Shown in pieces: positions 17,944 through 63,718 of a stretch of 64,000 nt of DNA. The notes beneath the pieces are model-generated. The model was given only the letters and a program-made list of their open reading frames with translations, was not told where the DNA came from and ran no database searches. Source of the stretch: Phoronis australis (Eukaryota > Animalia > Phoronida). The position numbers and the translations under genes are program-made. Position 1 is the stretch's first letter; the number at the start of each line of letters is the position of its first letter. Location: the NCBI GenBank assembly GCA_002633005.1, contig NMRA01000272.1:1-64000 (forward strand), given 5' to 3'.

Positions 17944-18282
17944 ATGGGCCGACTGCAGTCACCATTGACAGTGAAAATCATCGGAACAAAATATTTAATC
18001 ACTCAACCGGAGTACTGACAGTACATGAAGGACAAGACTACGTGCTCAGATGCCAAACAAGCGTGACCTCGCCAAGTGCCACAATGATGTGGTCGGTCAA
18101 CGGGACGGTTAAAAATGTGTCGAGCACAATGAATAGGTCGTCTAGTGACGGTTACGTGTTCATCCGAAGTTTGACTTTAACTCCAAAAGGTCTCCATAAC
18201 GGTCTCTATGTAACATGTAGTGCTTACAACAATGGAGACCGAAGAATCAGTTGTTTGCGAAAGTATCGATTGTATGTTATCT
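17944..18282 (+). CDS. Ig-domain exon 1 (339 nt)
   Basis: tag|AT GGG CCG ... ATC T|gtaagt; GPTAVTI..YVLRC..MMW..YVTCSAYN. Confidence 0.9.
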
Positions 18283-18521
18283 GTAAGTATTTGTTATTTG
18301 GCTTCACTTCTATCTGGTTCTCGGAGAGAAATACATGTAGATGACAATTTCAATCGGGGAATATGTAAACAATCATGGTAATAGGGCATCGTTGCGTGCT
18401 TTTTCGCCTGGTAACTTATAGCCTTTAGAACTTTCAAATGTTCTTTTCCAAGTGTAGGAAGTGCTTCTGACATGGTCACTTTTGCCTTGTCAACAGTCTT
18501 AACACAATTGGCTTCAAGTCG

Positions 18522-18549
18522 CGAGAGAGAGAGAGAGAGAGAGAGAGAG
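18522..18549. repeat. (GA)n microsatellite, probable (CT)n tail of the adjacent LINE
   Basis: Direct read; next to the N at 18555. Confidence 0.9.
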
Positions 18550-18555
18550 GGGGAN

Positions 18556-21224
18556 TTCTGATATAAATAAATCAATGTTACCGGGTCCACTTATCCATAC
18601 CTCCCCAAACCCGTATCTGAATAAAATATCTTTAACTGCACTGGCCCAATTTGCTCGTCCTTTTTCACAGTCTTCCCGCAGCATCCTGTATCTTTTCTTT
18701 GGGTATCTGGGGTTATTCATCTGTAGAATTTAGTCCAGTAGATTATTGGTCTGCCCAAGTATTTCACAGATAATAAATGCCGTCCGCATTCTCCTCTGGC
18801 CATAACGTTACTTGTTTTCTTTGGGACACCAGCAACCCATTTACAGAAATCATTGTGAACACTTTCTATGTCTTTCGAATATACTGTACCCCATATCTCA
18901 GCACCATATAACAATATAGGAACTACCATACTATCAAACAATTTAAAACATACATGCGGGGATCTACACTTCACTTTGGTTAAACATGCTTTTAACATGT
19001 TCATTGCTTTTCTAGCTTGTAAAGCTGGTATTCTACAATTTTCATTCCATTTTAATCTGCAAGAAAATGTCACACCAAGATACTTGTAATAAGATTTCGT
19101 TTCTACCGATTTCTTATTGTAGAACCACCGTTCTTGTGCCGACAGAGTTCCACCTCGCCTGAAGACAACAACATTTGTCTTATCAAGATTAACACAAAGA
19201 CTCCAATCCACACAGTAGATGTGCAATACATTTAATTTCCTCTGGAGACCAGGCACTGTGTCCGACACAAGCACCAAATCGTCCGCAAACAATAACGAAC
19301 TTAATTCACAATCATCACACTTGATACCTCGTCCTCCATTTTCTTTGACCTCTGACACCAGTCCGCTAACAAAAACACACAATAACCAAGGACTCAGTAT
19401 ACACCCTTGTTTCACACCTCTCGTACAATCAAAATAGGGTGTGATTTGACTCTGTATTCTCACGCACGATTTCACTTCAGCATAAATATTCCTCAGGAGA
19501 TTGAAAATTTTCCCGTGGAGATTATTTTTTAACAAACAATAAAATAGACGTGTAGTTTCTAGACTGTCAAACGCCTTGCTAAAGTCTACAAAGGCACAGT
19601 ACATTTTTCCACCTCTTTTTGATAAATTTATGTGGGCCAAAGCTTGTAGAACAAAAATGTTATCCACGGTCGAATAATCCGCCCTAAATCCGCTTGTTCC
19701 TCAGGGATACATTGCATTGCATCCGACCACTTAATCAGCCTTCTGTTTAATATTGATGTAAACAGCTTGCTTATGCTATCAATTAAAGAAACTCCCCTGT
19801 AATTATTTGGGTTATTTGTGTCTCCTTTCTTGTAGATTGGGACGATTATACTCTTTCTCCAGTTCTCCGGGAATTTTCCTGTCGCCAGTACCTTGTTGAA
19901 TAGTTTGCATAATACTTCAAGGATGTCACCAGTCAGTGCTTTGAAGATTTCGTTTGGAATACCATCTTCTCCAGGGGTTTTGTTGCTTTTAAGTTTATCT
20001 ATTTCCTGCTGGATTTCGGACATGTCAATTTCTTTATTAAGTTGTACCAGGATTTCATCACCAGGTGTGTTGGCACAGTCATTGCAGGTTTCGTCGTGCT
20101 CTCGCATTTCGTCCAGCAAATTATTAAGGAATTCCATGTTTTCCCGTACAGGCTCAGTGTTCAAGAGTTTTTCAAAATAGTTATACCATTCGTTCGACGA
20201 AATATCTGCTTGTTGAATATTGTTCGGATTTATGATTGACTTCACGTTTGCCCAGAATATTCTTGGATCTCTCACTGAATCACATAATTTCCTTTCCATT
20301 TGTTCGTTATAATTCTTCTTTTTTCACGACAGGTTTCCTTAAATTGACTTTTCGTATCAATATAATTACGTAGTGTATCCACACACTTTGTGGATCTGAA
20401 AAGTTTCAATAAATTATGTTTTTCTATTTTCCTTTGCTCGCAAACGTTGTCGAACCACCTTGGCTGCTGCCTGTTCACTGCGAGTTTATTGCTTATTTTC
20501 ATGTCAGCGCCGCAAGCGTGGAATAATTCATTTATTAATTTAACTGCTTTGTTAATATCCATATCGATGTCTGAAGATATTTGGGATAATTTCTCGGTGG
20601 TGTCAACGCTTCCCAGTCTATCCTTAAAACTTGAAGATTTATGTGGCTGCCACTTGAGTCGGTGCAATGGGGTTGTTCTGACACTAGTGTTCGATCCGTC
20701 TGTATCAGCTTCCGTATGTTCTAGATAACGTAGAGTACACATGATAGGGAAATGGTCTGACTGGTCGTAGTTTAATACTTCAAAGTCATTAATTTTTTCG
20801 AACAGAGATGCCTCGGCAATAATATAGAAATGTCGTGGCTGTAGTATGCTGACCCTTCGGGAGGGAGATAAATTAAACCTATTATTACATGTGGCTTGTC
20901 TGAGCCAGCAAACAAATCTTTGAGATGCAAATATACTCTGTCTTCCAAATTCTCACAGATGCGAGTTATTTTGGTTCCTAAATTGTTCTTTACCATTACT
21001 GTCACTCCACCAGATGCTTTGCCGTTATGTATGTTTCGTACTGATGTGAACGTGGAATAATTTTCTAAGAGATCGCCAAATTCATGCTCTGCTCTTGCGT
21101 GTGATTCAATGAATCCTATGAGGTCGTAGTTTCTAATTATTTTTTTAATTTCTCCTTTGTTTTGTCGTAGCTTACTTTCTAGCCCCCCTATGTTCCATGA
21201 TCCTATTTTCATTTCTCTTGTCAT
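18556..21224 (-). pseudogene. LINE ORF2 (AP endonuclease plus reverse transcriptase), frameshifted
   Basis: 'IGSWNIGGL', 'GFIESH', 'SDHFPI', 'PGEDGIP', 'NYRGVSL', 'FVDFSKAFD', 'GVKQGCILSP', 'LFADD', 'YKYLG'. Confidence 0.92.
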
Positions 21225-21230
21225 TGTTTG

Positions 21231-21986
21231 CTATTGACTGTCGTCCTCTTCATTTGTATCCGTTCTATCTCTGAAGATGTATCTATCCTCGTTGCAGACA
21301 ACTTTGTCTATATGATCGTCATACAGGTACATTTTCCTGTTGTGATAAAGCTTATCGAATTTTATTGTGGCTTCTATAAAATTATTGTCTCTTGAGAACT
21401 GCCATAACTTTGATCTAGCGATACGAACCTTCTTGCTGAAGTCTTCAGCCACCGAGTATTGAGTTTCACTCCTTAATTTTCTTTTGCCTTTTAAGATCTG
21501 CATCTTGTCCTTGAACGAACTCAACTTTGCGATGATTGGTCGAGGTTTGCTAGGGTTCTTGCGACCAATCCTATGGGCCCGCTCAATCTTTACCTCTGAT
21601 ATGTCGAGGTGGTTATTGACTAGTTCCTTTACTGCAGTTTCCGCTTCTTCCCATGTTTCCGAATTCCCCTCGGGAATGCCGTGAAATATTAGGTTGTCCC
21701 GTCTAGACCTATTCTCTAAATCATCCACCTTGCTTTCCAAGTGCGCCACCTGTTGTCTCAAACCGACATTTTCCTGCTTCATTTCCTTGCATTGACGACT
21801 TAAGGATTCGAATTTACCAGACAAATCTTCTCTCATTTTCTCAAATTTTGCATTCATTTGTTCTAGTAGTTCTCTATTCGATATGTCAGGTGGGTTACTT
21901 TCAGGTTGAGTCATATATGAAGGTAAGGTCCGGTTGCGCAATCCGGTCGCAGGTCCTGCATTAGGTGTGCCTTTACCTCCTGGCAT
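21231..21986 (-). CDS. LINE ORF1 (coiled coil plus L1-type RRM), intact 251 aa
   Basis: 'LENRSRRDNLIFHGIPE', 'IERAHRIG..PRPIIAKL', 'VAEDFSKKVR'. Confidence 0.88.
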   Translation of the reverse strand: MPGGKGTPNAGPATGLRNRTLPSYMTQPESNPPDISNRELLEQMNAKFEKMREDLSGKFESLSRQCKEMKQENVGLRQQVAHLESKVDDLENRSRRDNLIFHGIPEGNSETWEEAETAVKELVNNHLDISEVKIERAHRIGRKNPSKPRPIIAKLSSFKDKMQILKGKRKLRSETQYSVAEDFSKKVRIARSKLWQFSRDNNFIEATIKFDKLYHNRKMYLYDDHIDKVVCNEDRYIFRDRTDTNEEDDSQ

Positions 21987-23274
21987 GATTTGCTATTGTT
22001 ACGTAACCTGTATATACACTGTAAACTGAAACAGAGCTCTGCCACCTCAGTGTAGGTAACCCTATAGCAGGTTATGGAACTGTCTCAAAGTCGGTTTTCA
22101 CTCAGTCTAATGAAATTTGACGAACCTTCAAGCGTTCTTTAGATGTTGAATATCACTTTCTCCTGACTGAAGTCCACACTTTTGCGTATAACCGTAGTAA
22201 TTTCTGGTTTTAGTATGAGCGATGTAGATATGCGTTCACAAAAATAGCGCCACCTATCAGAAGAAATCATGTTCTTTACAAAGTGAAAGAAGTGCTTCTG
22301 ACTTCGTTGAAAGTCCTGTTGCCTTATCAGCAGTCTTTACACAATTGGCTTTAAGTCGCGAAGTGCAGAAATATGATGGAACGGATTATCTACGACATGA
22401 CCTGAAACTATTGCCTATTGCCTTTGACCGCCATGTTGCCTTCTGATGATGTTAATTAAACAAGCGTGTCTCTGTTTTTCATGCAATGTTTCAGCCATTT
22501 AGCGAATGGGTAATCAAGTTATGCGTGTACAGTAGATGGTCTATGTTTATGTGGGACTGATTCACTATTAGTACGATAGTTTCAATACGGCGTTGATAAA
22601 CAAATTGCTTCTTTTCGATGATGTTTCATAGCCAGCAGGTGAAGTACTCTTTTCTCGCAGAGTACTTGGCTTTATTGATAAGCATTTGTCAGCTGTTGTT
22701 TACCCCGTAGGTGTGCTTGCTTATCGCATACAAAAAATATTCTTGTAAAAGATGCAGAACAACATGGACGGTTACGAGAATACAATAGTGCCATGACTTA
22801 GCAGATGGCTTATCTTGAATATTTCGACTCCAAGACCTGTTTGCATCATATGAAAGGGTTTAGGTGCGAGGTGTTACACAGGACTCTCTACGAAGTCCTG
22901 TGTTATTAGTATACGTGTGTCATAGATAACTGCATTGAACCTTAAGCATGGTGCTTCTTTTAATATTGCTCTTGTTATGCAGATTTATGATACGGACCCT
23001 GAGCCTGGGACTGTGTTCCGTAGGTCAGGCTTAGACAGAAGACCTATAAGACGCATATTACTTCATAATAGTTTTCACGACTCGGGACAACCAGGGCCGC
23101 AATTCATAACCATTAAGTAACGCATACATTGAAATCATTTCAAAACAACGGCAATGATCTGTCAAGAGAACTCACAGCATAACGCTTCAACTCAAGAGAT
23201 ATAAATCACAGTATGGTTACAGATCAGATATAGTATTTTGGTGTTGCCAAGTGGTATCTTTGCTTTCCACGCAG

Positions 23275-23607
23275 TCGGTCCTACCGTAATTGCGATAACA
23301 GATCAAAGTACTGTGCCTGGCATTCTCTCATCAAGTGGCGTCAAGGTCTTGAACGGCGGAACGTACAACTTCAGTTGTGAAACTGGCCTCGTTAATCCGG
23401 TCGCAAAACTCTTTTGGACTTTCTTAGGAATCTCAGCTAAAGAGTCTGCAACGAGAACCAAGGCCGCTGGCCATGGAAGACGCTTCAGCAAAAATCTGGA
23501 GTTCACTGCGATGCCTTCCTACAATAACCTAAAGATACTATGCACGGCCGTAAACGAGCTCGATTCGAAAAGAAACGTATCCGTAGCGCATAACCTGGAC
23601 GTTATCT
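23275..23607 (+). CDS. Ig-domain exon 2 (333 nt, type A)
   Basis: cag|TC GGT CCT ... ATC T|gtgagt; YNFSC..LFW..ILCTAVN. Confidence 0.9.
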
Positions 23608-23738
23608 GTGAGTATTCAAATGACGTCTGTTTACTCTGTAGTTATGATCATCAGCACTTCGGTTTCATTGAAAGCCATGTAGGCCCTACCTTTTTGGAAA
23701 ATACTCTGCTTTGTTAATTACTACCTTCTTATTCACAG

Positions 23739-24059
23739 TTGGACCCACAAATCTCACAATTCGCGACGGAAAAAATGACAAAGTCATCTATAGAACTTTA
23801 ACGGTGACAGAGTTCATGGTATACACGTTAACATGTGAAACAAGTGGAACGAATCCTGTACCAAACATAACCTGGACGTCAGAGGTTGCAAAGGGAACCC
23901 AGTCCAATGCAGTGATAGAAATGGACGACGGTGATCGATACGGGCGGAACTACACATTTACTGCTGATTCCTCATACGACAAAACGCACTTGAATTGCAA
24001 TGCAACGAACCCAGACAGCGAGATGTCTACAGACGTAAATATCCTGTTAGATGTGCATT
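23739..24059 (+). CDS. Ig-domain exon 3 (321 nt, type B)
   Basis: cag|TT GGA CCC ... CAT T|gtgagt; YTLTC..NITW..LNCNATN. Confidence 0.9.
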
Positions 24060-24279
24060 GTGAGTTGGTCTTGTTTTACATGCACGCGTACTCAAAGGTG
24101 ATAAAAAGTTTTTACAAATCTTATGTTTTTATAATTCGCCAATAGTCCATTTGCTGAATGCCTGTTCACTGTATTCGGAATACGTTCAAACGCACTGATT
24201 TTGCTTTGTGTTTACTATAGAATGTTTGTAGGGACAAAACGTTTATGTTTCATAAGAATCGTATCCGTTAAAATTACAG

Positions 24280-24582
24280 ACGGGCCTCATGCTATTAAGA
24301 TAAGCACCTCTTCAGGTGACGGCGTTAATGGTGAGCTTTCTGTCTTCGAAAGCGAGGTTTTCACTTTAACGTGTTCGGCCGAAGACGTGAAACCAAGGGT
24401 TAACATCACGTGGTCTATGGGAACCTCTGGTAGCATGATCAAGAGGAATCTGTCTTATAAAAAGAACACTACGTTGACCGCTGCCCCGTCGATGAACCAG
24501 GAAAACATGTATTGTTACGTGATAAGAGTGCCGTTTGATGACACGCGTTGGAGAAATGTCTCTGTTTCGTTAAATGTTAGCT
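24280..24582 (+). CDS. Ig-domain exon 4 (303 nt, type C)
   Basis: cag|AC GGG CCT ... AGC T|gtaagt; FTLTC..VNITW..MYCYVIRVP. Confidence 0.9.
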
Positions 24583-24865
24583 GTAAGTAACTAAAGTTGA
24601 AATCAGCACGAACGATTTCTTACGTGCTAAAATAGTCCTTTTTATTGGCATTTTGGTTACCGTGTTTTGCGGAATGCCGATTGAAGGCTATTATGAGCCT
24701 TATAAACGCTATACCTTATACCTCAAAGTGCGTCACATGAAATGGACTAAAAGGGTTAATATTTTGTAATTTTCCTTTGAATGATGATCAATATGTCAAA
24801 ATTAACCAAAGCATTGCTTACATTTCTTTCAGCGCAGGATTTCTCTCCAGATAACACCGTTTTGT

Positions 24866-25003
24866 CCCATGGGCGACACACCACAGTGGGCTAGCCTCTC
24901 AGTGTGTTCAGTGTTGCGCCGCCCACGGTCTATAGGCAGTGCATCAAAGTTGGAGCTGGAGGCTTTAGCCCTCCAGTTTTTTCAGTGCTGCGCCGCCCAT
25001 GGG
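24866..25003. mobile_element. Short TIR element (hAT-like MITE)
   Basis: cccatgggcgac...gcgccgcccatggg inverted ends. Confidence 0.45.
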
Positions 25004-25161
25004 AATCGGTTTCAGTTGAAGTCAGTTACGTTGCAAACATTTAATGGACACCTTTAGGCCTTTTGACTGTCGACAGTATCTTTTTTAGTGATACAGCTTG
25101 GAAGTATTTTGATCTCTTAAAACTTCTAGAAAGCACCTTTATTGTCGTTCTGCATGTTTAG

Positions 25162-25482
25162 ATGGTCCACGCCAGCTGCACCTGTATGGACAGAGCGCCG
25201 ACCTGTTGTCAGAGAATGTTAGTGTGGTAATTGGTGAGAAGTACACACTAGTATGCAAAACGGATCATGTTTGGCCAGGCGGGCATATGCGTTGGCTGGA
25301 GGCTTGGGGAAACCAGACGAAGACAACTATATCATCACAAACTACTAAATCGAAAAATTTTCAACGAAAATTTATGTTTATGCCACGTCCGGAACTGAAC
25401 AAACAAAATGCCTCGTGTGTCTTTCGGAATACTGGGCGAGGGAATTTCAGTGCAGAGCGATCAGTTTTAATTTTGGTCATTT
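25162..25482 (+). CDS. Ig-domain exon 5 (321 nt, type D)
   Basis: tag|AT GGT CCA ... ATT T|gtaagt; YTLVCKTDHVWP..MRW..ASCVFRN. Confidence 0.9.
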
Positions 25483-26376: not shown

Positions 26377-26715
26377 TTGGACCGCAACGTGTGGTTATTA
26401 CTGACGCAAGTACGGTCCCTGGTCAGTTTGACCCATGGTCACGGGAACTTACCGTGGTGGACAACCTTAGCTACACCATGTCGTGTGCAACAAGCAGCGT
26501 ATACCCATCGGCGCGCCTCTGGTGGTCCCTCTCCCATGTAACCGGACGTCTGTCGACCATCACTAAAGTGGTGGACGGTCACGGGTTTAATTACACGCAG
26601 TTGTTGACTTTCAAGGTTCAGCCATCATATAATGACGAGCATGTGGTCTGTAAAGCGCAAAACGATGCAAGCGAAATGTTCAACCGATCCGAATCGTTCA
26701 CTCTGTCTGTCTTAT
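26377..26715 (+). CDS. Ig-domain exon 6 (339 nt, type A)
   Basis: tag|TT GGA CCG ... TTA T|gtaagt; YTMSC..LWW..VVCKAQN. Confidence 0.9.
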
Positions 26716-32338: not shown

Positions 32339-32668
32339 TTGGTCCTACCTCGCTTTCCGTTACTGACGTCAGTAGGGAGAAAGGGACACGCGGAGGCCAC
32401 ATGTTCACCGTCATTGACACGTGGAAGTACACACTACAGTGTAAAACTGACGCAGTGAGAACGTCGGCGAACGTGACGTGGATATCTATACTGCCTGGTG
32501 GTCGGTCGCCGTTGAGTATCGAAACTGTTTCCAATGGAGCTCACCGTTATGCTAGAAACATTACCTTTACTGCAACGCCAGTTTATGACGGTGTGCTGTT
32601 GAGCTGCAATGCATCAAATTCTCGCGCCCCTTTTTCCGTAGATGACTATTATTTTCTAGATGTTTACT
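32339..32668 (+). CDS. Ig-domain exon 7 (330 nt, type B)
   Basis: cag|TT GGT CCT ... TAC T|gtaagt; YTLQC..NVTW..LSCNASN. Confidence 0.9.
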
Positions 32669-34312: not shown

Positions 34313-34615
34313 ATGGACCCTATGTCCTTAACATTACGACGGTGTCCGGCGCAAATATCGGCCAAGTGTTCAGTGCTGACGAAGGTAAACCGCTAGAACT
34401 AAGGTGCTCTTCGGGTGATGTGAAACCGGGCGTCAACATGACATGGTCACACGGTTCTAGTGGAAGTATCGTAAAAAGGTCTCTGTCCTACCGCTTCGAC
34501 ACCCAAATAAATGTGACGCCGCTGCTCAATCAGCAAGAAGTATCGTGCACCGCTATCCGTGTTCCAGTCAAAGGGTCTTCAATTATCAAAGTTTCGGTGA
34601 CAATTCATGTTAATT
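34313..34615 (+). CDS. Ig-domain exon 8 (303 nt, type C)
   Basis: cag|AT GGA CCC ... AAT T|gttagt; LELRC..VNMTW..VSCTAIRVP. Confidence 0.9.
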
Positions 34616-35101: not shown

Positions 35102-35437
35102 TTGGACCCAAGAACCTGAAAGTCGTGGAGTTAGGTGAAAATCGGGATTTCGTCTACTTCCCCGAGGGAAGACTTGTGGTTATCGAATCATTTATCTACA
35201 AATTACAATGCATAACTGATAGCGTTAATCCCAGCGCGTCGGTACGTTGGGTGTCGCCCATGGGCGGTCATCAATCGACACAGGTGAAGTACCCCAGCGC
35301 TCACGGTGGCGACGATTACGAACGCAACTTCACCTTCAACGCCTCCAGGAAGTGGGACAATTCGAATTTAACTTGCACTGCTGTGAATTCTATTACTCTA
35401 GTAACAATGAGCAAGGGATATACCATACGGGTTTACT
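35102..35437 (+). CDS. Ig-domain exon 9 (336 nt, type B)
   Basis: cag|TT GGA CCC ... TAC T|gtgagt; YKLQC..VRW..LTCTAVN. Confidence 0.9.
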
Positions 35438-38195: not shown

Positions 38196-38498
38196 ATGGC
38201 CCGAATACTGTTGAGTTGAAAACATCAACAGGTCAAGATATTGGATCGAGTTATAGCAACAAAGAAAACGTTACGGTCACCCTAAACTGTCTAACGGATG
38301 ACGTCGCCCCGTATGTTAACATTACCTGGACACATGGCGAAATGGGAGAGGTTCGCGCCATTGGCAACGCTTTCCAACGAAACACATCTATCAATGTCAC
38401 TTCATCGTTGAATCAAAATGAGATCACGTGCAGGGCTAAAAGGTATCCAGTAAAGGAGGCTCGAGGGATCGCGCGTTCTATGATTCTGACTGTGTACT
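38196..38498 (+). CDS. Ig-domain exon 10 (303 nt, type C)
   Basis: tag|AT GGC CCG ... TAC T|gtaagt; VTLNC..VNITW..ITCRAKRYP. Confidence 0.9.
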
Positions 38499-38732: not shown

Positions 38733-39056
38733 ATGGTCCAAAACGTACAACTATTGATCTGAAGGGAAATGTTTATCGACTTGGAAATGAGGTAGCACTG
38801 TTTTTCGGACACCGGTACGAAGCAGATTGCTTAACTGACGCAGTATGGCCAGACGCAGGCATTGAGTGGTCAATTCCGTCAGAACAGCTTGATCTAAAAA
38901 TCTTGAATCAAACTCGCAGTGAACGGTGGCTGGTTAGAACATTGGCGATTGCTCATGGTCAACACACCACTGACGGTGATAGTCTCATATGCACGGCTGA
39001 GAACGCAAAACATCCGGAGTTCAACGCTAGGTCTCTCCTCCTCGTTAGAACAATAG
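38733..39056 (+). CDS. Ig-domain exon 11 (324 nt, type D)
   Basis: cag|AT GGT CCA ... ATA G|gtaaac; YEADCLTDAVWP..IEW..LICTAEN. Confidence 0.88.
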
Positions 39057-39699: not shown

Positions 39700-40023
39700 C
39701 TGGACCAACAAAGGTTACTATTTCAAGTCGAACCCTGCACCAAGGCATGTTGGGCGTGATGGACCGTGAAGAGGTTACAATAACGTGCAAGACAGATGCA
39801 GTTTACAGACAAGCGATTGTAACGTGGTTCACCGCTATTAGGAATCAAACTGAAGGTCGAGTCAGCCAAGAAATTCGCGGAAACCCACCGAAGACTTATT
39901 ACACGAAATCTCTTGTGATTTTCCCAGCTCTTGATGAAAACAAGGCTCACATCACGTGCTTCTCATCTAACAAATACTCTTCCAACATGAACGCAAGCGA
40001 AACAATCGTCGTTATTGTGAGCC
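39700..40023 (+). CDS. Ig-domain exon 12 (324 nt)
   Basis: tag|CT GGA CCA ... AGC C|gtacgt; VTITC..VTW..ITCFSSN. Confidence 0.87.
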
Positions 40024-46966: not shown

Positions 46967-47230
46967 CGCGTGTCCAACTGCAAGATGATTCAGCGATACT
47001 TGGGTCGACTTACAGGACGCGGTTAGCGCGTACTTATGTTATCCATTGCCAATGGCTTAGGGCTGCTACAACCAAGGAGCTCAATCAAAAGTTGACAAAT
47101 GCTAAAAATTCGGGTCAGGGTGAACGCCGGACTGTAACCTTCACACCAAGTGCAGAAGACCATAACAAAGTCATTCAATGTTACAGTTGCTGTCCTATCT
47201 ACGCTGTCAACACCTCGTTAGAAGTCATAC
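46967..47230 (+). CDS. Atypical short Ig-like exon 13 (264 nt; alternative acceptor gives start 46964)
   Basis: ttccgagcag| NAGNAG acceptor; ATA C|gtatgt donor; open frame RVQLQDDSAILGSTYRTRLARTYVIHCQW...VTFTPSAEDHNKVIQCYSCCP..LEVI. Confidence 0.65.
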
Positions 47231-47909: not shown

Positions 47910-48230
47910 ATGGACCGACAAAAGTCAGCATTAGTGGTGCCGTTCTTTCGGCGGGAAAAATTGAACTCCCAATCAACGTGCCTCTGACAATAACATGTAC
48001 GACCGATGCCGTGTTTCCAACCACCACGGTAGAGTGGGTCACTCCAATAGGTGGGCGTCGTCTGTCAGCTAAGTCGCATGAGATTAGAAAGAAGGTCTTC
48101 ATCGTGTCCAGGCAGTTTACATTCACTCCACGGAAATCGCACCAGGGCAAGTCCATTCAATGTAAGGCAGTGGATGACCGGGGCGTGACGAAAGCCGCTA
48201 CTAAAGTAACGGCAAAGTTGACCACTGCAT
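47910..48230 (+). CDS. Ig-domain exon 14 (321 nt)
   Basis: cag|AT GGA CCG ... GCA T|gtaagc; LTITC..VEW..IQCKA. Confidence 0.9.
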
Positions 48231-48980: not shown

Positions 48981-50030
48981 CGTATCTCAGTTGCCGAATA
49001 AGGCGCAGATTTAAAGCGTTTATCACGCTTGCCGATCTAATGACAGCAATTGTCACAGGGTTTAAAACCAGGCTTAGTGTCCCTTTTAAATGCAGATACC
49101 AAGCTTAAAAGCGTGTAGTTACAGAGGTGTTAACAGCGTTTGAAAGCGAGTGTTTTTTTTTTCGTTTAGTCGGTCCGACAGATGTCACCTTAGTTAACAC
49201 GATGACTAAAGTGGAACTTAGGCGTCCTTACGCGGTTATTGAACACCAAGAAGTGTCAATTACGTGCAAGACGAGCAAGGTGAATCCAAAAGCAAACGTC
49301 ACCTGGATGGTTACCTCTTCCACTAATTTTAGCAGCGCCTATAACATCGAGGATACAGTTTGCACTACATCTCGCGAGTTTCCAGTGTGCAGCCGGGATA
49401 TTGTCTTCACGGGACATAGACGATTGCTGAAGAACCAGTTAACATGTTTTGCGAAAAACGTGGACGCCAGCCAGATAAACGCCAACGACAAAATAGTGAT
49501 TANCGTATCTCAGTTGCCGAATAAGGCGCAAATTTAAAGCGTTTATCACGCCTGCCGATCTAATGACAGCAATTGTATCTGTCACAGGGTTTAAAACCAG
49601 GCTTAGTGTCCCTTTTAAATGCAGTTACCAAGCTTAAAAGCGTGTAGTTACAGAGGTGTTAACAGCGTTTGAAAGCGAGTGTTTTTTTTTCGTTTAGTCG
49701 GTCCGACAGATGTCACCTTAGTTAACACGATGACTAAAGTGGAACTTAGGCGACCTTACGCGGTTATTGAACACCAAGAAGTGTCAATTACGTGCAAGAC
49801 GAGCAAGGTGAATCCAAAAGCAAACGTCACCTGGATAGTTACCTCTTCCACTAATTTTAGCAGCGCCTATAACATCGAGGATACAGTTTGCACTACATCT
49901 CGCGAGTTTCCAGTGTGCAGCCGGGATATTGTCTTCACGGGACATAGACGATTGCTGAAGAACCAGTTAACATGTTTTGCGAAAAACGTGGACGCCAGCC
50001 AGATAAACGCCAACGACAAAATAGTGATTA
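48981..50030 (+). repeat. Near-identical tandem duplication (48981-49502 / 49504-50030) joined at a single N
   Basis: Same sequence restarts right after the N at 49503; about 5 substitutions and small indels. Confidence 0.95.
49170..49502 (+). other. Truncated duplicate of Ig exon 15 (probable assembly or haplotype copy)
   Basis: Identical to 49698-50030 apart from one silent change and one M/I change; ends at N with no donor. Confidence 0.75.
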
Positions 50031-50039
50031 ACGTGTGGT
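49698..50039 (+). CDS. Ig-domain exon 15 (342 nt)
   Basis: tag|TC GGT CCG ... TGG T|gtaagt; VSITC..NVTW..LTCFAKN, plus an extra Cys pair. Confidence 0.9.
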
Positions 50040-52669: not shown

Positions 52670-52987
52670 TTGGTCCTGACAAGGTTTCACTAGTCGCTGA
52701 CAACAACAACCCACTTGAAGGGGAAATCGTAACACTGACCTGTTCCACTGATATTGTTTACCCAAACGCAACTATTTCTTGGAGTCACTCTTTGAAAGAA
52801 GTTAATGAAGTCGCTCAAGAAAAGCATAAGTTTGTCAATGACCAAGGCCTGCAGACATTTGCATCCAATTCAGCGCTGGTTTTCAAAGCAGATCGAACAG
52901 ACGACGGCAAATCTGTTGTGTGTAAAGGCCAAAACGAAGTCTTGGGTGATGTGCAGAACGCAGCAAGGACTGGAATTCGTGTGGCAT
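52670..52987 (+). CDS. Ig-domain exon 16 (318 nt)
   Basis: cag|TT GGT CCT ... GCA T|gtaaga; EGEIVTLTC..YPNATISW..DDGKSVVCKGQN (most canonical C2-set-like domain). Confidence 0.92.
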
Positions 52988-53519: not shown

Positions 53520-53846
53520 ACGGTCCATACTCACTCAGATACAGATACACTGGCATCTACAAGTGTTTCCAGTTGACGTGTGTCGTCCCCAACGGCACAT
53601 TGTTCACCTTGCAATGTTTAACGGACGAAGCATCACCTGCAGTAAGGATGAAGTACACGATAAGGGCCCCTCAGACAGTTTGGACGGTAGAACCAAGAGT
53701 CAAACCATACAGTGACTACAAGTATGAAGCAAGTTTTGAATTCTCAATCGCACCCAAATATGACGAAGCAGTTATTGAGTGTACTGCGCAAAATGGACGT
53801 AGACCCGATCATCGCCGTCAGATTTATGTTACATTGAACATTCCAG
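53520..53846 (+). CDS. Ig-domain exon 17 (327 nt)
   Basis: tag|AC GGT CCA ... CCA G|gtacaa; FTLQC..IECTAQN. Confidence 0.87.
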
Positions 53847-56642: not shown

Positions 56643-56981
56643 TTGGACCATCGCAGGTTTCCATTAAGCAATCCGGTGGGCGTTGGAGTGAGGGAAACGC
56701 CATTGTTCTCAAAGGAGACACATTCGTGGTCTTATCGTGTCAGACCGATTACGTAAAAGATGGTGTTATTATGAAGATGCACATGTTCAGAAAAGGCTCA
56801 TCTCAGAAATACCCTCTTCCTCGGGCAAGCGTTCAAGAGATCGGTGACACCAAAACATTCAAAACGGAAATTTCAATGTTTATAGCAACGGAAGACCACG
56901 GCATCAAAATATTCTGCACTGCAACGAACCTGAAAACTGACTATCTGTCTGCGTCCGCTTGGGTTATCGTAGATATAACAG
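56643..56981 (+). CDS. Ig-domain exon 18 (339 nt)
   Basis: tag|TT GGA CCA ... ACA G|gtgact; VVLSC..EDHGIKIFCTATN. Confidence 0.87.
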
Positions 56982-57019
56982 GTGACTTATGGGAAGTCAA
57001 ACCAGTGTTACCGGTCCTG

Positions 57020-57258
57020 GGGCCCGTTCCAAGTAGCTGTTCATTTTTTACTTAAGTTTAAGATATGTCTCAACTTCCAAACTTTGAAACCTCTACAGTC
57101 GGCAAGTTAATCAAATTAAGACAAAACTTATGTCAAACACTTAATTCATACTTAAGATCTCTTTCTTGAAAGGTTTTTGAGACAAATTTAACTTTTATTT
57201 TAAATTTACTAAAATTTAGGATTTGTCTTAGCCAAGTCAGTTTTGTTGGAACGGGTCC
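57020..57258. mobile_element. PIF/Harbinger-type MITE
   Basis: TIR gggcccgttccaa / ttggaacgggtcc; CTG target duplication at 57017-19 and 57259-61. Confidence 0.75.
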
Positions 57259-57991
57259 CTGTTCATTGAGTCACACGTTTTGGTACCTGGTGTTTGCAAA
57301 ACAAGCTTATATAATACCTACACTGATACATGACTGGTCTTAAAGTTTACCTTACTCAGAATAAAAACAAAAGAGAGTTCTCGAAGTACAAAATGACCGC
57401 GGGACAGACTAACTTGCTGCGTTTGTGAAAGTTGGAATTAAAGCAATGTTCATTCTGCTTTTAAGACACAAATACAGCAACACGCGGGAAAATTGCTTCT
57501 TTTTGAAATTCACGAGATCGTCATGCCTTCAGATTGTTCAACTTTTGATTCTTGACATTGTTGACTAGTTTAGTAAAAACTTGTCGTGGTATTTTTTAAA
57601 AAAATGTAAAAAGAAAAAAGGCTGCTGTGTTTTACGACATGTTGTTGATAACGAGCGAACGCTTTGTTGCCTGCTCAGCTCACCCGCGTCCGTTGAATTA
57701 GTGCTATTTCATGTCAAGAACGTTGCACGACTTGTTCTTGTCTTGTCTTTTATTGCAATTTATCTTATCAACATCACAGTTCAGTAGCAATGTATTCTTC
57801 ATGCACTGCTTGTCATGTTGAATGTGAATATCATTACCGTGCTTGAAAGGTTGAATATCAGTTGCGTTCTAAGCAAGCTGAGTAATTGTGTGTTCCAGTA
57901 TGGTGAATAACGGAACAACAAAAAAGACTCACGAGGTACCAAAACTAGCAGACTGAGCCAAGCCCTGATCAAAAGTATCCCAGAGAAAGGC

Positions 57992-58880
57992 GTGGCTCCA
58001 AACTAGTTCAAGCGCGATATTTCCCAACACCAAACTAAAATGAAATAAAAGTATTTCATCGTCAAAACGGTGGAAAGTTTTAGAAATCATCTGTAAAATG
58101 ACACCAAATAGGTCCCATTTTGCATTTCTATGAAGCTCTCGTGCACCGGAGGTAAAATTCAACGAAACAAGAAGAGTCTGTCGTTCTCGTCTGTCATAAA
58201 CAGTAATTTTTACGAAATCTGGCTTACTTAATGGACGGATACTTGGTGTTTATTTCATAATTACCACAATTATGTTAAATCATTGTATTTTTTGCGTAGA
58301 ACAGCCTGTTTTTTATAAAATAGCACCAGGCAGTTTTGAATTGAGACCGGCTTCGCGATCATTCACGGGCTAATGCCGTGATTCACATATCTATCGCCAT
58401 ATGTTATGGACGTAACAAAAGCCGGTCAAGATGATGTTTTGATACTGGCTGTTTTGGAGTAGTGTTTCTCATAACACTCGGCTTAAGGTTACTCGACCAG
58501 GAAGTCGAGTCTGCCGGGGCATGTTAATGATCGCTAATTAAAAATGCCTGGTGATATTTTATAGACAACAAGAAAATTCAATATAATAATGTAACATAAT
58601 TTTGCAGATTATTAAATAAAAACCAGGTATCCGTACATAAATAGATCCAAACTTCGAAGAAAATCGCTGTATATCACAGAAGCGAACAAAGTTTTGTTTA
58701 GGTGAGCTCTGCAATTTTACCTCCAGTGTGGAAGACCTTTATAGAGTTGGCAATATAATACGTATTTGGTGACATTTCAAAGAAATTTTCTAAGGCCTCC
58801 CACATTTTTGACGATGAAATATGTGTTTTCGTCTTCACATGGTGTAGGGAAATTCGAGACTCGAAATAGTTTGGAACCAC
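57992..58880. repeat. ~890-bp foldback element with long degenerate inverted arms
   Basis: gtggctccaaacta/tagtttggaaccac, tatttcatcgtcaaaa/tttgacgatgaaata, ggaggtaaaatt/aattttacctcc, acggatacttgg/ccaggtatccgt, caccaggca/tgcctggtg. Confidence 0.75.
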
Positions 58881-59411
58881 TTTTAGTAAAAGCCTTTTGA
58901 ACTGACTTGATAGGAATACATAGATAGATGTGCTGAAATTCATTACAAAAACATTTTAAGGACTATTCCTTTATTATTTTCTTTATTATTTCATATCCTT
59001 AGTAAAACCATATTGTCAAAATTTATGAATTTAAACTTTCCCCCGCCACCACTTTGTGATTTTGCAGGTTTTCTCAGATAATGCCTCTTGACATCGCGCA
59101 TCCACGGATATTTGTCAACTTTATCATCTAATTTTCTGTCGTTGGAGTTGCGGTCACAGCAAAGAAGTAACATTTTGCTGTAAAAACGAATACAGTAACG
59201 TAACTTTAACGAATGGGCTAATAACAAAAACCTGCGGAATTCCTAGGGCGCGAAAACGAGACCGGAATGTGTTGAGCGGATAACGCGGCTTTTTAGGTAA
59301 ATGCAGCAGGATTCGATTGTCGTTGTGTATTTCAGAACAACCCTATTGTCCCATTTACACCTTAAGTAAATGTGGAAACGTTTTCCATTGAACTGTGTTT
59401 TTGGATTTTAG

Positions 59412-59744
59412 TTGGTCCGGAGAAGATTACTTTTCTGCAGTGTGTGGGCGGCAGGCGGCGCCGAGTTAGTGAATGCCTGACAACAGTGGCTGCAAGAATC
59501 GTGTTTATGTGTGTCACGGATAAGGCACTCCAAGCTGTCAACTTTGAGTTCACCTTGCACTTAAAAAGTGGTCAAGTTATCACTCTACCAAAACAAGTGG
59601 ACAAAACGGCATATGACAGTTACGTAGGAAAGGCAGTTTTGGAAATGAAAAAAGATTACGACCTGAGCACTATCTGGTGTCGGACACACAACAGCAGAGA
59701 AGCAACTCTGAAGGCGTCTCGCTCTCTGCGTGTTCATGTCAAAC
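59412..59744 (+). CDS. Ig-domain exon 19 (333 nt)
   Basis: tag|TT GGT CCG ... AAA C|gtaaaa; VFMC..YDLSTIWCRTHN. Confidence 0.85.
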
Positions 59745-60299
59745 GTAAAACTTTTCTTAACAGTTATCTTTTTATGTATGCTAGACTTATTTTATGAGCA
59801 TTGTATTCAATCAGAAACCTAACATTGAAGCTTATTGTATTAACAATCTAACTAAGGAGTCCAGTTTTCGTGTGCCGCGATAAAAATGCATCTGTTGCTT
59901 TAGATTTTTCGAATTTTTATATCTAATGCTTTGTTGGATTTATTTCAATCCTGAAAGTAATAAGGCTGATAAATGTAACCCGGGTGCTCTTCCGAATACA
60001 AATCATTTTATTGTACGTTTATTTGAAACGCCCTCGTGTGAGTAGTGTGCGTGCTGCAAATGCCAACACCATGACGCCAGGAATTGCTGGAGCTGACACG
60101 GTGTATTTACCATTTCTACCAATAAGCGAAATGACACCTGTGTTAAAAATTATAAACGCCCATAGAGTGTTTATAGCTGACAGGGAGAATATATTACCCA
60201 ACAATTACTTGATCCGGTTGACGAAATGTAATTGAACTTGGCTACAACTTGCAACTGCAGAAGGTCACTCAACAGTGTACTTGGGTTGCGTATTCGTCA

Positions 60300-61970
60300 A
60301 ACACTTTGGTGTAAGCTAGGAGGGAAAGTGTGGAGGTTTCAGCTTAACACAAGCAACGCAAGCCCCCTCCGAGGCCAATAAGCCTACCAATGGGAACAAC
60401 AGGACACAAACGACAGCGTTCACGAACCTAATAGCTACCACCAATTGTCCTCCGGCAGTGCAAAAAGGGTAACTAAAATACAGAATGACCCCTGCTGGAC
60501 CGAGACCTTTCACGAATTCTGTCAACAAGTCTGAAGGCTGAGGCCAGAACTGTCGGAGTTTCGGAGCAACAACCAAATAGGCGACAGGTTTGCGACGGAC
60601 AGCGTTCTGAAAAGGTAATTAGTGTGAGCTACTGTACAGGAAAAAATCCAGGTTTAGTAGACGACATCCGGAATAACATAATTGTCATCTCTAGAGCAGA
60701 ACACCAGTGGATACGACGGAGTAGGAAAGGCAAAGCCGACGTTTCCTTTGACAAAAATTTCTTTGCTTTTCCCAAGCAGCTCTTCCACAATACCAAGAGT
60801 GGAAACCTAAGTGTGCCGAGGATCGACCTGCAAGGCTATTTACATAAGGTGTATTCAAAACGAAACAAAGCTGACTTTTTTATAGACCGACACGGCTTCC
60901 ACGACCACTGAAACCAGAGTTTCCATTTGACATGTCTCCCTTTGACTGAGGTTCGGTAGTTTGTACGGAAAGACAGCTCTAAACGTTTCCCGGACTGAAC
61001 AGGATTTCCTATAAGCTATATACGAACTGTCCTACAGTGCTCCATCAGGTGACCTGGAGAGAAGGATTGGTTCCCCAGCATTTGGATTACAAAGGAACTG
61101 AACTCGATTTCTTGCTCAGCAACGTTGCTCTTTGTTGTGCCACTTGAGCTGGTGCTCTTTGGGGCGCAGGATATTACAAAAGTTCTGGAAACTAAGTCTG
61201 ACTTGGTTCTTCCGCCTGCCAAAGCCTTAATGAACAACAGCCATGTTTTAGTCAAAGAATGGCACCGAGAGATTATTGGAACACTTCATCGAGTTGTTCA
61301 CATGGGCTAGAATGAAAGCTAAACCAGCCACACAGCCGCAATCTGGTGGCAGACAAAGGTAAACAGATCCACTTCTTATTTGAGGGGTGAGGACATTCCT
61401 ACGGTGGCTGATAAACCAGTCAAAGTTTTGGGACGCCTTCACACTCTCCCCTTAGTGACACGCAACGCGGCAAGGGCGTTCAGATTCTTATTGAGGATGA
61501 TCTCAAGGCCGTCGATTACAGCCTGCAACCTGGGGGCTTAAAATGGGGAGCTTTCAGTATGGTCCCTGCAAATATATGAAGTCCTATTATTAATGAAAGG
61601 CAGTATGGAATAGCACATCAGTAAGTCCCTATGTATTTGGTTAGGGATCCCTCTGTCGGAGTTTACAGCAGAACTGGAATTCTGCAGCTACCAATTTCAT
61701 CTATCGTGGTGAAATATAAGGCCAGCAAAGTCAGACTGTGACAGACCCAGTTGCCCGTTCAGTGTTGCCCAAAATGTGCTGTGTTCGTGAATAGTCAGCG
61801 GCAAAAACGGCAAAACATGTCGAGGCAAGGCCTGGAAACAAGAATGTAATAGGAGCCATTCAAACAGGGCGTGTTGAACTCGACTGTTCATCCCACAAGG
61901 GGTCCTCGACCGCAGGTACCAAAGTCCGTCACCAGATGACTGACGAAGAGTTCAGCTCGCTTGAGTAAGA
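60300..61970 (+). mobile_element. Heavily decayed R2-group (HERO/NeSL-like) non-LTR retrotransposon fragment
   Basis: 'FFAFPKQLF...SGNLSV..L.GYLHKVYS', 'KPVKVLGR', 'YSRTGILQLPI..KYKASKVR' in broken frames. Confidence 0.55.
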
Positions 61971-62421
61971 GAGCATAACTCTTAAGTACTTTGACAAAAT
62001 AAATTAGTTCACTTTGAAGGGCAAAGTTTTGGGTAATCCGGAACTGGGTACATTTTAAAATTAAAGTTGTAAGGAAGTCTGAAATATTTAAACTGTTTCA
62101 TGAAAGTCAAAGAACGAGAACATGTGACATTGTGTTACATTTAAGACCGCGATAGTTATACATACATGTAGTTCTCATGAGGTACAATTGGATAATTTAA
62201 CCTTGCTTCCGTAAGACAGCTCTTTGTTGATTGGACCCTTTCGCAAATTCCCTGAAGAAAAGGTCCCCGGAAGCGAGATAGATATGTGTCAAGTGCGGTA
62301 TATGTTGTAAAGCTGTGGCACATACGTTCCACTAACAGGGTTAGAATGTGTTCCAATTTAGTACCGTGTTTTGTCTTCCTATGCATTGGTCGTGTCTGAT
62401 TAATTCTCCTGGTGTATTTAG

Positions 62422-62772
62422 CTGGTCCCCCTCTTGGCCCCCATAGCGTCAAAGTTCATTTGATTGGGCAGTACACACTGGAGACGGGGGAAAGTACGGT
62501 GATTGTCACAAATGGCACGGCACTGGACGTCGTCTGCACATCCGGAATTGCCTACGTGGGATCCAACATCAACATAAGGATTATCACGAGACATGGAGTC
62601 GCCACTGATCTGAAAACGCGCAATATACGCGCGTTCAAGAACTCATCCACCCAAGCCACTGCATCTTCAATTATCACTTATCGTCATCACGGAGGTACAT
62701 TAGAATGCACTGCAACCAACACGCGAGCCAAACGACTACGAGCACTTAAACAGTTTCTCATTGATGTGACAG
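62422..62772 (+). CDS. Ig-domain exon 20 (351 nt)
   Basis: tag|CT GGT CCC ... ACA G|gtaggt; LDVVC..HHGGTLECTATN. Confidence 0.87.
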
Positions 62773-63394
62773 GTAGGTCTACAGAAATTAAAAAATGTCC
62801 AGTTTTGTTCGCTATCTTGCATAATTAAGCAAATAGTGCCACCAAGCCGAAGTAGGACTTGTGCTCATTAGATGTGTTTCAAGAAGCTTAACGTTCAGCT
62901 TACGTGCAGGGTTTTTGAACCGCAACTAGCCCCATATTGATATGATTATTTCTGAAATGCTACAACCGTCAGCTTTACTGCTATACACCTTATTCACGCA
63001 GTCGCCATTATAAAAATGAGCCTATTTGTAAGGTTTAGAAATCACACATTCCGCGGTTAATCACTGTGCGGAGCGGGATTTTTTAGCATGCCTCGTTAAT
63101 ATCTATGTCTCAAATGGATTGTTTTTTAAATTTAAAAAGAGGCTTGCTTTTAAAATGGCGACTGCCTGTAATTTTACAGCAAAAATGATGGTGGACAATT
63201 CCCATTGTGATAATTAATACAGGGCAACAAATTAACCTCACTTTTCAGATCTGGCTCTTTTGAGCTTCCGTTGTTACGCTAGTGTCCGTTTCATGTAACT
63301 TATCCCAAAATCCATGACTGGCACTCAGTACAACAAAGTTTAAATGAGTAAATTTTTGCAATAGTGCAAATAATATTAATATGAATTTTCTCAG

Positions 63395-63718
63395 TTGGAC
63401 CATACAACACGGCTATTGAAAGTGCAGACGCCACAACAAAAGTTGTTAATGGTGAGGTAATCGTTGGAAACGGGACACTGGCACAAATTCGTTGCGTTGC
63501 GACGGTTAATCCACTAGCTCTGATGAACTTTTCTTCAAACCTCATCAGCTCCGCATTGCCCATTAAATCCAAAACCCGTGACATATTTACTCGGATTGCG
63601 AAGCAACTATCTTTCACCAGATTCATGGATCATGAAAAGGAGACGTTCGTTTGTTCTGCAACCAATACACGCAATCCATCGCTGGTACAATCCGTCTCTG
63701 CCAACTTGAGAACTGTAG
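63395..63718 (+). CDS. Ig-domain exon 21 (324 nt)
   Basis: cag|TT GGA CCA ... GTA G|gtaaga; AQIRC..ETFVCSATN. Confidence 0.88.

What the first reader, a model, noticed from the sequence alone, without database searches (positions are those of the whole stretch)
17944..63718. Giant array of 21 divergent one-exon Ig domains: candidate undescribed invertebrate recognition or adhesion receptor
Seen: 21 stop-free exons over 46 kb, each encoding one whole Ig-fold domain (xGP...C...W...C...V), at least 2,265 aa in series, running to the window edge. Neighbouring domains share little beyond framework residues, yet all frames are intact among heavily decayed transposons, which implies purifying selection. 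Known: nephrin/KIRREL, siglec and CD80-like C2 domains have similar 'V-x-Y-G/P-P' linkers. An uninterrupted run of 21 such domains with no FN3, TM or other exon matches no family I can name, and the hemicentin/titin 'D-x-G-x-Y-x-C' motif is absent. Inference: a lineage-specific, fast-evolving surface or secreted protein, possibly in immunity, allorecognition or gamete recognition.
Basis: partly seen in the sequence, partly recalled or inferred. Interest (0 to 1): 0.85.

Follow-up and report, generated by a model that had tools for sequence, protein, structure and literature searches.

The report
Giant spliced Ig-rod plus thrombospondin gene
This animal gene has 21 one-exon, nephrin-type immunoglobulin domains, most of them shown to be spliced in order, followed by a likely thrombospondin repeat; it likely makes a long extracellular adhesion rod, one more of the poorly studied 'hemicentin-like' giants of invertebrates, and nothing yet ties it to immunity.

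Summary
There are 21 distinct phase 1-1 exons (6,795 nt, 2,265 codons, no stop), plus a near-identical 22nd copy at a scaffold N that is probably an assembly duplicate. RNA reads from 2 of 3 raw-read runs join 15 of the 16 junctions examined, all GT-AG; 4 of the 20 junctions were not examined. The domains are SYG-2/nephrin-type C2-set Ig folds at about 20% mutual identity, without the DxGxYxC motif. Reads show the next exon, outside the window, begins VHGKWAAWLG, a thrombospondin type-1 start, so the array is not Ig-only. No orthologue was found among 1.84 billion representatives. Hemicentin fails on domain type and collinearity, nephrin on domain count. Long C2-type arrays labelled 'hemicentin-like' already occur in molluscs, echinoderms, hemichordates and fish, so the scale is not unique; C2 array followed by TSP1 was not seen in the fetched hits. 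Splicing looks constitutive, not Dscam-like, and polymorphism is modest (13 sites, pN/pS about 0.5, not significant). Best reading: a lineage-specific extracellular adhesion or spacer rod of about 90 nm. Both gene ends are unseen.

The parts
17944..18282 (+). Exon 1 in window, Ig domain 1 (internal exon; upstream exons not found)
   Evidence: AG/GT phase 1-1; Pfam C2-set_2 29 bits; joined to exon 2 by 8 reads
23275..23607 (+). Exon 2, Ig domain
   Evidence: joints 1-2 and 2-3
23739..24059 (+). Exon 3, Ig domain
   Evidence: C2-set_2 24 bits; joints 2-3 and 3-4
24280..24582 (+). Exon 4, Ig domain (short type, kin of exons 8 and 10)
   Evidence: joint 3-4 seen, joint 4-5 not listed
25162..25482 (+). 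Exon 5, Ig domain
   Evidence: joint 5-6
26377..26715 (+). Exon 6, Ig domain (kin of exon 2)
   Evidence: C2-set_2 26.6 bits; joints 5-6 and 6-7
32339..32668 (+). Exon 7, Ig domain (kin of exons 3 and 9)
   Evidence: joints 6-7 and 7-8; no Pfam hit
34313..34615 (+). Exon 8, Ig domain
   Evidence: joints 7-8 and 8-9
35102..35437 (+). Exon 9, Ig domain
   Evidence: joint 8-9; joint 9-10 not examined
38196..38498 (+). Exon 10, Ig domain
   Evidence: splice sites and frame; C2-set_2 21.3 bits; no reads laid
38733..39056 (+). Exon 11, Ig domain
   Evidence: splice sites and frame; no Pfam hit; no reads laid
39700..40023 (+). Exon 12, Ig domain
   Evidence: no reads laid
46967..47230 (+). Exon 13, short Ig domain without GP (5' end inferred)
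   Evidence: joined to exon 14 by 12 reads; both Cys and Trp align; model pLDDT 75, Ig-domain matches Z up to 7.9
47910..48230 (+). Exon 14, Ig domain, net charge +11
   Evidence: C2-set_2 26.2 bits; joints; charge
48981..49502 (+). Near-identical copy of exon 15 and its upstream intron, cut off at the N at 49503; likely an assembly (haplotype overlap) duplicate
   Evidence: 97.6% over about 530 bp; no donor site; summed read depth of both copies equals one exon
49698..50039 (+). Exon 15, Ig domain
   Evidence: joint 15-16, 13 reads; the 14-15 joint (4 reads) was placed on the duplicate at 49170
52670..52987 (+). Exon 16, Ig domain; holds 6 of the 13 exonic SNP sites
   Evidence: C2-set_2 35.3 bits; AlphaFold pLDDT 96.4; Foldseek Necl-4, Rst, SYG-1; SNPs
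53520..53846 (+). Exon 17, Ig domain without the C-strand Trp
   Evidence: joints 16-17 and 17-18
56643..56981 (+). Exon 18, Ig domain without the C-strand Trp
   Evidence: joints; ESM Atlas C2-set_2 clusters at 0.95
59412..59744 (+). Exon 19, Ig domain without the C-strand Trp, net charge +9
   Evidence: joints; ESM Atlas Ig clusters 0.91-0.94
59745..62421 (+). Intron 19, with sense-strand reads in X1 and X2 only (retention or an alternative last exon; stop 17 codons in)
   Evidence: depth 0.8-2.3 across the intron, near 0 in introns 15 and 17; poly(A)-type hexamers at 61998 and 62060
62422..62772 (+). Exon 20, Ig domain
   Evidence: joints 19-20 and 20-21
63395..63718 (+). Exon 21, last Ig domain; its donor is spliced to a TSP1-like exon beyond the window
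   Evidence: 17 reads at joint 20-21; 6 reads with a loose end after 63718, agreement 1.0
63621..63718 (+). Alternative internal acceptor in exon 21; shifts the frame and stops inside the exon
   Evidence: 6 reads against 17 for the main acceptor; frame and stop

Best explanation
The 21 exons are parts of a spliced, expressed gene (likely a single gene) for nephrin/SYG-2-type Ig domains followed by a likely thrombospondin type-1 repeat, and the product likely works as a long extracellular adhesion or spacer rod. Shown: exon order, 15 splice junctions, Ig fold type and no orthologue among the proteins searched. Inferred: the array grew by duplication of symmetric phase-1 exons, including a block (exons 2-3-4, 6-7-8, 9-10). 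Short V-x-x-G-P linkers would stack the domains into a rod of about 90 nm. The first ten domains carry most N-glycosylation sequons (35 of 47) and would form a glycosylated stalk. The several basic C-terminal domains and the TSP1 repeat would bind glycosaminoglycan or matrix, while an unseen N-terminal domain would engage a partner at the tip, as in Kirrel/nephrin. Membrane anchoring or secretion cannot be told from the window. Two minor RNA forms would cut the protein before the TSP1 repeat, or are decay substrates.
For: Junction reads, GT-AG, at the predicted bases, with strand consistent with the + gene. Best solved relative of the profile is SYG-2 (4ofy_D, E 2.4e-18, domains 2-4). Exon 16 folds at pLDDT 96.4 and matches Necl-4, Rst and SYG-1. 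Pfam gives Ig hits for 15 of 20 exons scanned, 6 above the C2-set_2 cut-off. The loose end reads VHGKWAAWLG in frame (translated by hand), against hemicentin TSR starts PVHGKWSSW and PVDGKWATW; chance of G.W..W at fixed places is about 8e-6. No hydrophobic 19-mer above 1.36 in any exon. Internal kinship from BLAST and tree. A five-Ig Kirrel3 monomer has Dmax 21 nm and Kirrels bind tip to tip (10.1101/2021.03.09.434456, passages), scaling to 88 nm.
Against: Neither end of the gene is seen: no signal peptide, transmembrane or cytoplasmic exon was found. The TSP1 call rests on a 30-nt consensus of 6 reads from one run. Four junctions (9-10 to 12-13) were not examined and junction 4-5 was not listed. 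The same Kirrel paper reports flexibility between domains, so 'rod' means elongated, not rigid. No binding or tissue data. The tree is mostly unresolved (0 of 18 branches starred). Glycosaminoglycan binding is an inference from charge and from what is known of TSP1 repeats.
Confidence: 0.6

Rival explanations
1. It is the ectodomain of a signalling receptor, such as an adhesion GPCR or a receptor kinase or phosphatase, in which the Ig array and TSP1 repeats sit ahead of a GAIN-7TM or an enzymatic tail.
For: Ig followed by TSP1 occurs in receptors: UNC5 has 2 Ig and 2 TSP1 (PMC10084454, passages); TSP1 in adhesion GPCRs of the BAI type is recalled. Many long Ig arrays fetched end in a hydrophobic segment.
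Against: No downstream exon can be seen. None of the 13 long hits scanned with Pfam carried GAIN, 7TM, kinase or phosphatase domains.
Confidence: 0.15
2. It is a strongly diverged hemicentin or hemicentin paralogue that works in basement-membrane linkage.
For: Long Ig run directly followed by a VHG-starting TSP1 repeat, as in the fetched bird and lancelet hemicentins.
Against: 0 DxGxYxC motifs in 21 domains, against 35 in P0023 and 22 in P0046. Best chain alignments are 21-27% and out of register. Domain-order correlation is -0.22 to -0.02 against 4 hemicentin entries. Domains score as C2-set/SYG-2 type.
Confidence: 0.1
3. It is a polymorphic immune, allorecognition or gamete-recognition receptor.
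For: No orthologue found. Junction reads in 2 of 3 runs and none in X3. 8 of 13 exonic SNP sites are non-synonymous, 6 of 13 in exon 16. The unseen N-terminal domain could be the variable part.
Against: No exon-skipping joint was listed. Only 13 sites in about 2.9 kb; pN/pS 0.50, p=0.20 against neutrality. Hydractinia Alr proteins are highly polymorphic V-set plus I-set receptors (PMC9546547, abstract), a different build. Caveat: reads under 97% identity were excluded and the SNP table for exons 1-9 was truncated.
Confidence: 0.1
4. The array is two tandem paralogous genes that break somewhere between exons 9 and 13.
For: Those four junctions were not examined; the two halves differ in sequon density (35 against 12) and in internal kinship.
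Against: All these exons have phase-1 acceptors and donors; no well-scoring transmembrane or terminal exon candidate in the gaps; read depth is of the same order in both halves and in the same two runs.
Confidence: 0.05

Closest known systems
Nephrin / SYG-2 (and Kirrel / SYG-1 / Rst)
   Same: Domain type: best PDB sequence match of the profile is SYG-2 D2-D4; fold matches Rst, SYG-1 and Necl-4; best per-domain database scores are Saccoglossus 'syg-2-like' and Ptychodera 'nephrin-like' entries.
   Different: Nephrins have nine Ig domains then FN3, Kirrels five (PMC10084454). This gene has at least 21, then TSP1; identity is only about 25-35% per domain and not collinear.
Hemicentin-1
   Same: Very long tandem Ig run directly followed by a TSP1 repeat starting VHG.
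   Different: Hemicentin Ig domains carry DxGxYxC (35 in P0023), here none; no collinearity; VWA, G2F, EGF and fibulin-C (10.1101/2021.11.24.469833, passages) lie outside what can be seen.
Auto-annotated 'hemicentin-like' / 'syg-2-like' long Ig proteins (Mizuhopecten XP_021370007, Patiria XP_038064817, Amphiura XP_072029069, Glandiceps XP_077980081, Saccoglossus XP_006819856)
   Same: 11-32 profile-matching domains, many of C2-set_2 type with few or no DxGxYxC; the scallop and brittle-star arrays are as divergent internally (33-35% nearest identity) as this one (35%).
   Different: None is an orthologue (best domain 33-36 bits, order correlation -0.17 to 0.16 for the three tested). None has a TSP1 motif. 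The scallop and Glandiceps proteins mix two Ig types; this array shows one type throughout.
Sialoadhesin (Siglec-1)
   Same: Works-like analogy: a long Ig stalk, 17 extracellular domains (PMC8155805, passage).
   Different: Vertebrate lectin with an N-terminal V-set domain (recalled); no V-set domain seen here and the N-terminus is outside the window.
Hydractinia Alr and arthropod Dscam
   Same: Invertebrate Ig-superfamily genes with divergent domains.
   Different: Alr has V-set plus I-set domains and is highly polymorphic; Dscam uses mutually exclusive exons (recalled), whereas the exons here are joined in series.

Membership tests
Ig superfamily, C2-set_2 / SYG-2-type domain | Beta-sandwich with B- and F-strand Cys pair | tested here: met
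   Both Cys in 21 of 21; seven-strand model, pLDDT 96.4, Foldseek TM 0.76 to Necl-4; 6 of 20 exons above the Pfam cut-off
Ig superfamily, C2-set_2 / SYG-2-type domain | C-strand Trp | tested here: inconclusive
   Present in 16 of 21, absent in exons 17-21; exons 18 and 19 still map to Ig clusters
Hemicentin | Ig domains with the DxGxYxC motif, as in the fetched hemicentins | tested here: not met
   0 of 21 against 35 in P0023 and 22 in P0046
Hemicentin | Collinear similarity to known hemicentins | tested here: not met
   rho -0.22 to -0.02, best domain 30-32 bits, 4 entries
Hemicentin | TSP1 repeat after the Ig run | tested here: met
   Loose end VHGKWAAWLG against TSR starts; only the first 10 codons are seen
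Hemicentin | N-terminal VWA, more than 40 Ig, G2F, EGF, fibulin-C | not testable with these tools
   Outside the window; no genome held; definition
Nephrin / SYG-2 | Nine Ig domains followed by FN3 | tested here: not met
   21 Ig exons (at least 9 in series in the 3' half alone), then a TSP1-like exon; definition
Dscam-type hypervariable receptor | Mutually exclusive exon arrays | tested here: not met
   15 consecutive joints and no skipping joint listed at the 3-read threshold; exons 10-12 not examined
Alr-type allorecognition receptor | High allelic polymorphism | tested here: inconclusive
   13 sites in 2.9 kb, two runs, 97% identity filter
Alr-type allorecognition receptor | V-set domain 1, I-set domains 2-3, transmembrane segment and tail | not testable with these tools
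   Termini outside the window; the visible domains are not V-set
Adhesion GPCR / UNC5-type receptor | GAIN-7TM, or TM-ZU5-death domain | not testable with these tools
   Downstream exons outside the window
Siglec | N-terminal V-set sialic-acid-binding domain | not testable with these tools
   N-terminus unseen

The most novel reading that the evidence does not exclude
A hemicentin-like architecture (giant Ig array, then TSP1) built independently from nephrin-type C2 domains by exon shuffling, acting as a membrane receptor with a roughly 90-nm recognition stalk, and switched to soluble Ig-only forms by read-through of intron 19 and an internal acceptor in exon 21, in a tissue- or state-specific recognition role.
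Probability: 0.15. Interest if true: 0.65.

Novelty: new variant of a known kind. Interest (0 to 1): 0.38.

Why it matters
Giant multi-Ig genes are common in invertebrate genomes, are labelled 'hemicentin-like' by automatic pipelines and have no known function (PMC13093298). This one is a clean, read-supported example with an order not seen in the fetched hits (only nephrin-type domains, then TSP1) and no database orthologue. If the downstream part proves to be a receptor or a hemicentin-like tail, it would show the same architecture reached twice with different Ig modules. If the truncated RNA forms are regulated, it would be a membrane/soluble switch in an invertebrate Ig protein. As it stands it is a well-evidenced uncharacterised gene, not a new system.

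Tried and rejected
No genome is held for this window, so the ends could not be extended. The run search listed no RNA holder by index; four runs came by species label, and X4 (contigs) showed no exon joints. Word-index protein searches with the 20-exon alignment gave 4 weak hits among 7,996 longer candidates and none among 322 near-length candidates; both are weak evidence of absence. The exhaustive profile search listed 150 of 2,604 hits; the best single-domain score among the 161 proteins then held was 48.8 bits, against 72-107 for the window's own exons in a profile built from them. Exon 21 found no relative in metagenome contigs (396 pattern matches, none confirmed), and the alignment was too divergent for that tool. 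A LINE RT search for a phylum-level hint gave 37-59% hits, mostly unnamed, one oyster: the organism stays 'animal, likely a marine invertebrate'. A scan for upstream, signal-peptide or transmembrane exons found no convincing candidate; Pfam on 105 non-exon ORFs gave only transposon-type, weak coiled-coil and P2RX7_C hits. The domain tree was mostly unresolved. Eight literature searches listed no description of this architecture; the library is open-access only, the SYG-2 structure paper was not held, and no supplements were read. Three look-ups of earlier findings returned nothing. No complex prediction was sent, as no partner is known.
Full report
Observation. A six-frame scan finds 21 open frames with GP..C..C on the + strand between 17,944 and 63,718, each opened by AG two bases before the Gly codon. 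Twenty end in a phase-1 GT donor and have lengths divisible by three. The other (49170-49502) runs into the N at 49503 and is part of a 528-bp duplicate, 97.6% identical to the stretch holding exon 15. A further exon without GP ends at 47230 and most likely starts at 46967. The motif count is 21 on +, 0 on -, and 0.08 on average (maximum 2) in 100 shuffles.

Transcription. Three raw-read RNA runs and one contig set with the same species label were listed. About 18-19% of each raw run was read. The chain has 20 junctions; 16 lay inside the two stretches laid. Fifteen were listed, all GT-AG at the predicted bases, with X1+X2 read counts: 1-2 8, 2-3 3, 3-4 6, 5-6 7, 6-7 6, 7-8 7, 8-9 9; 13-14 12, 14-15 4 (placed on the duplicate), 15-16 13, 16-17 20, 17-18 17, 18-19 11, 19-20 9, 20-21 17. 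Junction 4-5 was not listed (threshold 3 reads); 9-10, 10-11, 11-12 and 12-13 were not examined. No joint skipping a whole exon was listed. X3 gave no junction reads, and its tissue is unknown. The two copies of exon 15 together carry the depth of one exon (X1 4.7 against 4.6 for exon 14; X2 12.1 against 10.1), which favours an assembly duplicate.

What follows the array. Six X1 reads leave exon 21 at 63718 with a unanimous 30-nt loose end. In the phase-1 frame (one search shows the donor) I translate it by hand as VHGKWAAWLG. TSP1 repeats in the fetched hemicentins start PVHGKWSSW, PVDGKWATW and QVHGGFSDW. The chance of G.W..W at those places is about 8e-6, and none of the three G.W..W matches in the window's six frames is this sequence. 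A WxxW motif in TSP1 domains is also described in PMC7663992 (passages). So the next exon is very likely a TSP1 repeat, on ten codons of evidence.

Minor RNA forms. Six reads against 17 use an acceptor at 63621, which shifts the frame and stops inside exon 21. Intron 19 has sense-strand depth of 0.8-2.3 in X1 and X2 and none in X3, about a third of exon 19 depth in X1 and a tenth in X2. Read-through stops after 17 codons, and two poly(A)-type hexamers lie at 61998 and 62060. Both forms would end the protein before the TSP1 repeat. They may equally be decay substrates or unfinished transcripts.

Domain type. Pfam was run on 20 of 21 exons (not exon 13): 15 have an Ig-family hit at E up to 1, 6 pass the C2-set_2 cut-off, 5 have none. 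Two of those five map to C2-set_2 or other Ig clusters in the ESM Atlas at 0.94-0.95. The profile's best solved relative is SYG-2 (E 2.4e-18). Exon 16 folds as a seven-strand sandwich at pLDDT 96.4 and matches Necl-4, Rst and SYG-1. Exon 13 folds less well (pLDDT 75), with Ig-domain matches at Z up to 7.9, a level the tool flags as middling. Both Cys are invariant; the C-strand Trp is lost in exons 17-21. DxGxYxC is absent. Top internal pairs are 4-8, 8-10, 2-6, 3-7, 4-10, 7-9 and 3-9, which fits an old block duplication (2-3-4, 6-7-8, 9-10); the tree groups 4/8/10 (94/88) and 1/2/6 (89/95) but has no starred branch. Exons 1-10 hold 35 of 47 sequons; exons 14, 19 and 20 have net charge +11, +9 and +7; no exon has a transmembrane-like stretch.

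Relatives. The profile search of 1.84 billion representatives gave 2,604 hits, 150 listed. The top ranks are long repeat proteins that score by domain number. Among the 161 proteins then held, the best single-domain score was 48.8 bits (Saccoglossus 'syg-2-like') and the top 30 chain alignments were 21-26%. Per-exon best hits scatter over many proteins, and domain order does not correlate with any of 8 targets tested, 4 of them hemicentin entries. Four of the 161 carry a TSP1 motif, all with 17 or more DxGxYxC motifs. Long arrays poor in that motif exist in scallop (22 domains), sea star (12), brittle star (11), acorn worms (20 and 32) and fish; most are recent repeats, but the scallop and brittle-star ones are as divergent as this array. 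PMC13093298 (passages) notes that multi-Ig 'hemicentin-like' genes are abundant in bivalves and of unknown function. I named 30 of the 150 hits by cluster look-up, chosen for length, score or motif.

Variation. One search lists 14 exonic rows, 13 sites once the duplicated one is merged: 8 non-synonymous and 5 synonymous over 2,207 and 685 sites, pN/pS 0.50, p=0.20 against neutrality. Six are in exon 16. Reads under 97% identity were excluded and the table for exons 1-9 was truncated, so deep alleles could be missed. This neither shows positive selection nor proves constraint; the 21 intact frames beside broken LINE and other elements remain the argument for constraint.

How it likely works. 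Symmetric phase-1 exons let domains be added without changing frame. A five-domain Kirrel3 monomer spans 21 nm and Kirrels bind tip to tip (10.1101/2021.03.09.434456, passages), so 21 domains would reach about 88 nm, with some flexibility. I infer a glycosylated stalk that holds an unseen N-terminal binding domain away from a TSP1-containing base, which binds matrix or leads to a membrane anchor (0.6). Rivals are a signalling receptor ectodomain (0.15), a diverged hemicentin (0.1), a recognition receptor (0.1) and two tandem genes (0.05).

Comparison and verdict. It works like nephrin or sialoadhesin in having a long Ig stalk, and is ordered like hemicentin. It fails membership of nephrin (nine Ig plus FN3; PMC10084454, passages), of hemicentin on Ig type and collinearity (definition in 10.1101/2021.11.24.469833, passages), and of Dscam on splicing. 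Alr-type membership cannot be settled (PMC9546547, abstract and start of text). A review of invertebrate IgSF proteins had no occurrence of 'hemicentin', 'nephrin' or 'thrombospondin' (PMC11999971, term search). Eight searches of the open-access library listed no description of this architecture; no supplements were read. Verdict: a real, expressed, apparently lineage-specific giant Ig gene, a new variant of a known but unstudied kind; interest 0.38.

Noticed in passing
window:18720-21992 (-): Nearly full-length LINE in intron 1 with ORF1-like, endonuclease and RT parts split over several frames; reads from other copies cover it in X1 and X2.
   Followed up: partly
window:496-3525 (+): Decayed LTR-type retrotransposon: integrase zinc finger, rve and RT fragments, with the integrase pieces ahead of the RT piece.
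   Followed up: no
window:10303-11444: THAP-domain ORF on + overlapping a P2RX7_C-like ORF on -, with a 56-bp inverted repeat at 10176-10231 / 11666-11721: likely a DNA transposon with terminal inverted repeats.
   Followed up: no
window:36611-36771: Self-complementary 160-bp element (83% palindrome) in intron 9, with reads on both strands and strand-switching joints; MITE-like.
   Followed up: no
window:57992-58880: 350-bp inverted repeat at 70% identity in intron 18.
   Followed up: no
window:33636-34299: Sense-strand depth of 2.9-3.7 in X1 and X2 just upstream of exon 8; may be partial intron retention, a cryptic exon or repeat reads.
   Followed up: no
window:7270, 18555, 49503: Three single N letters mark scaffold joins of unknown size; reads join exon 1 straight to exon 2 across the one at 18555.
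   Followed up: partly
window:28018-29364 (-): RNase H-bearing retroelement fragment in intron 6, abundantly covered by reads from other copies in all four runs.
   Followed up: no
P0005, P0011, P0013 (database proteins): Bivalve single-pass membrane proteins with 33-62 tandem Ig repeats and many annotated isoforms, labelled hemicentin-like or adhesin-like; longer arrays than the one here, of DxGxYxC type.
   Followed up: no
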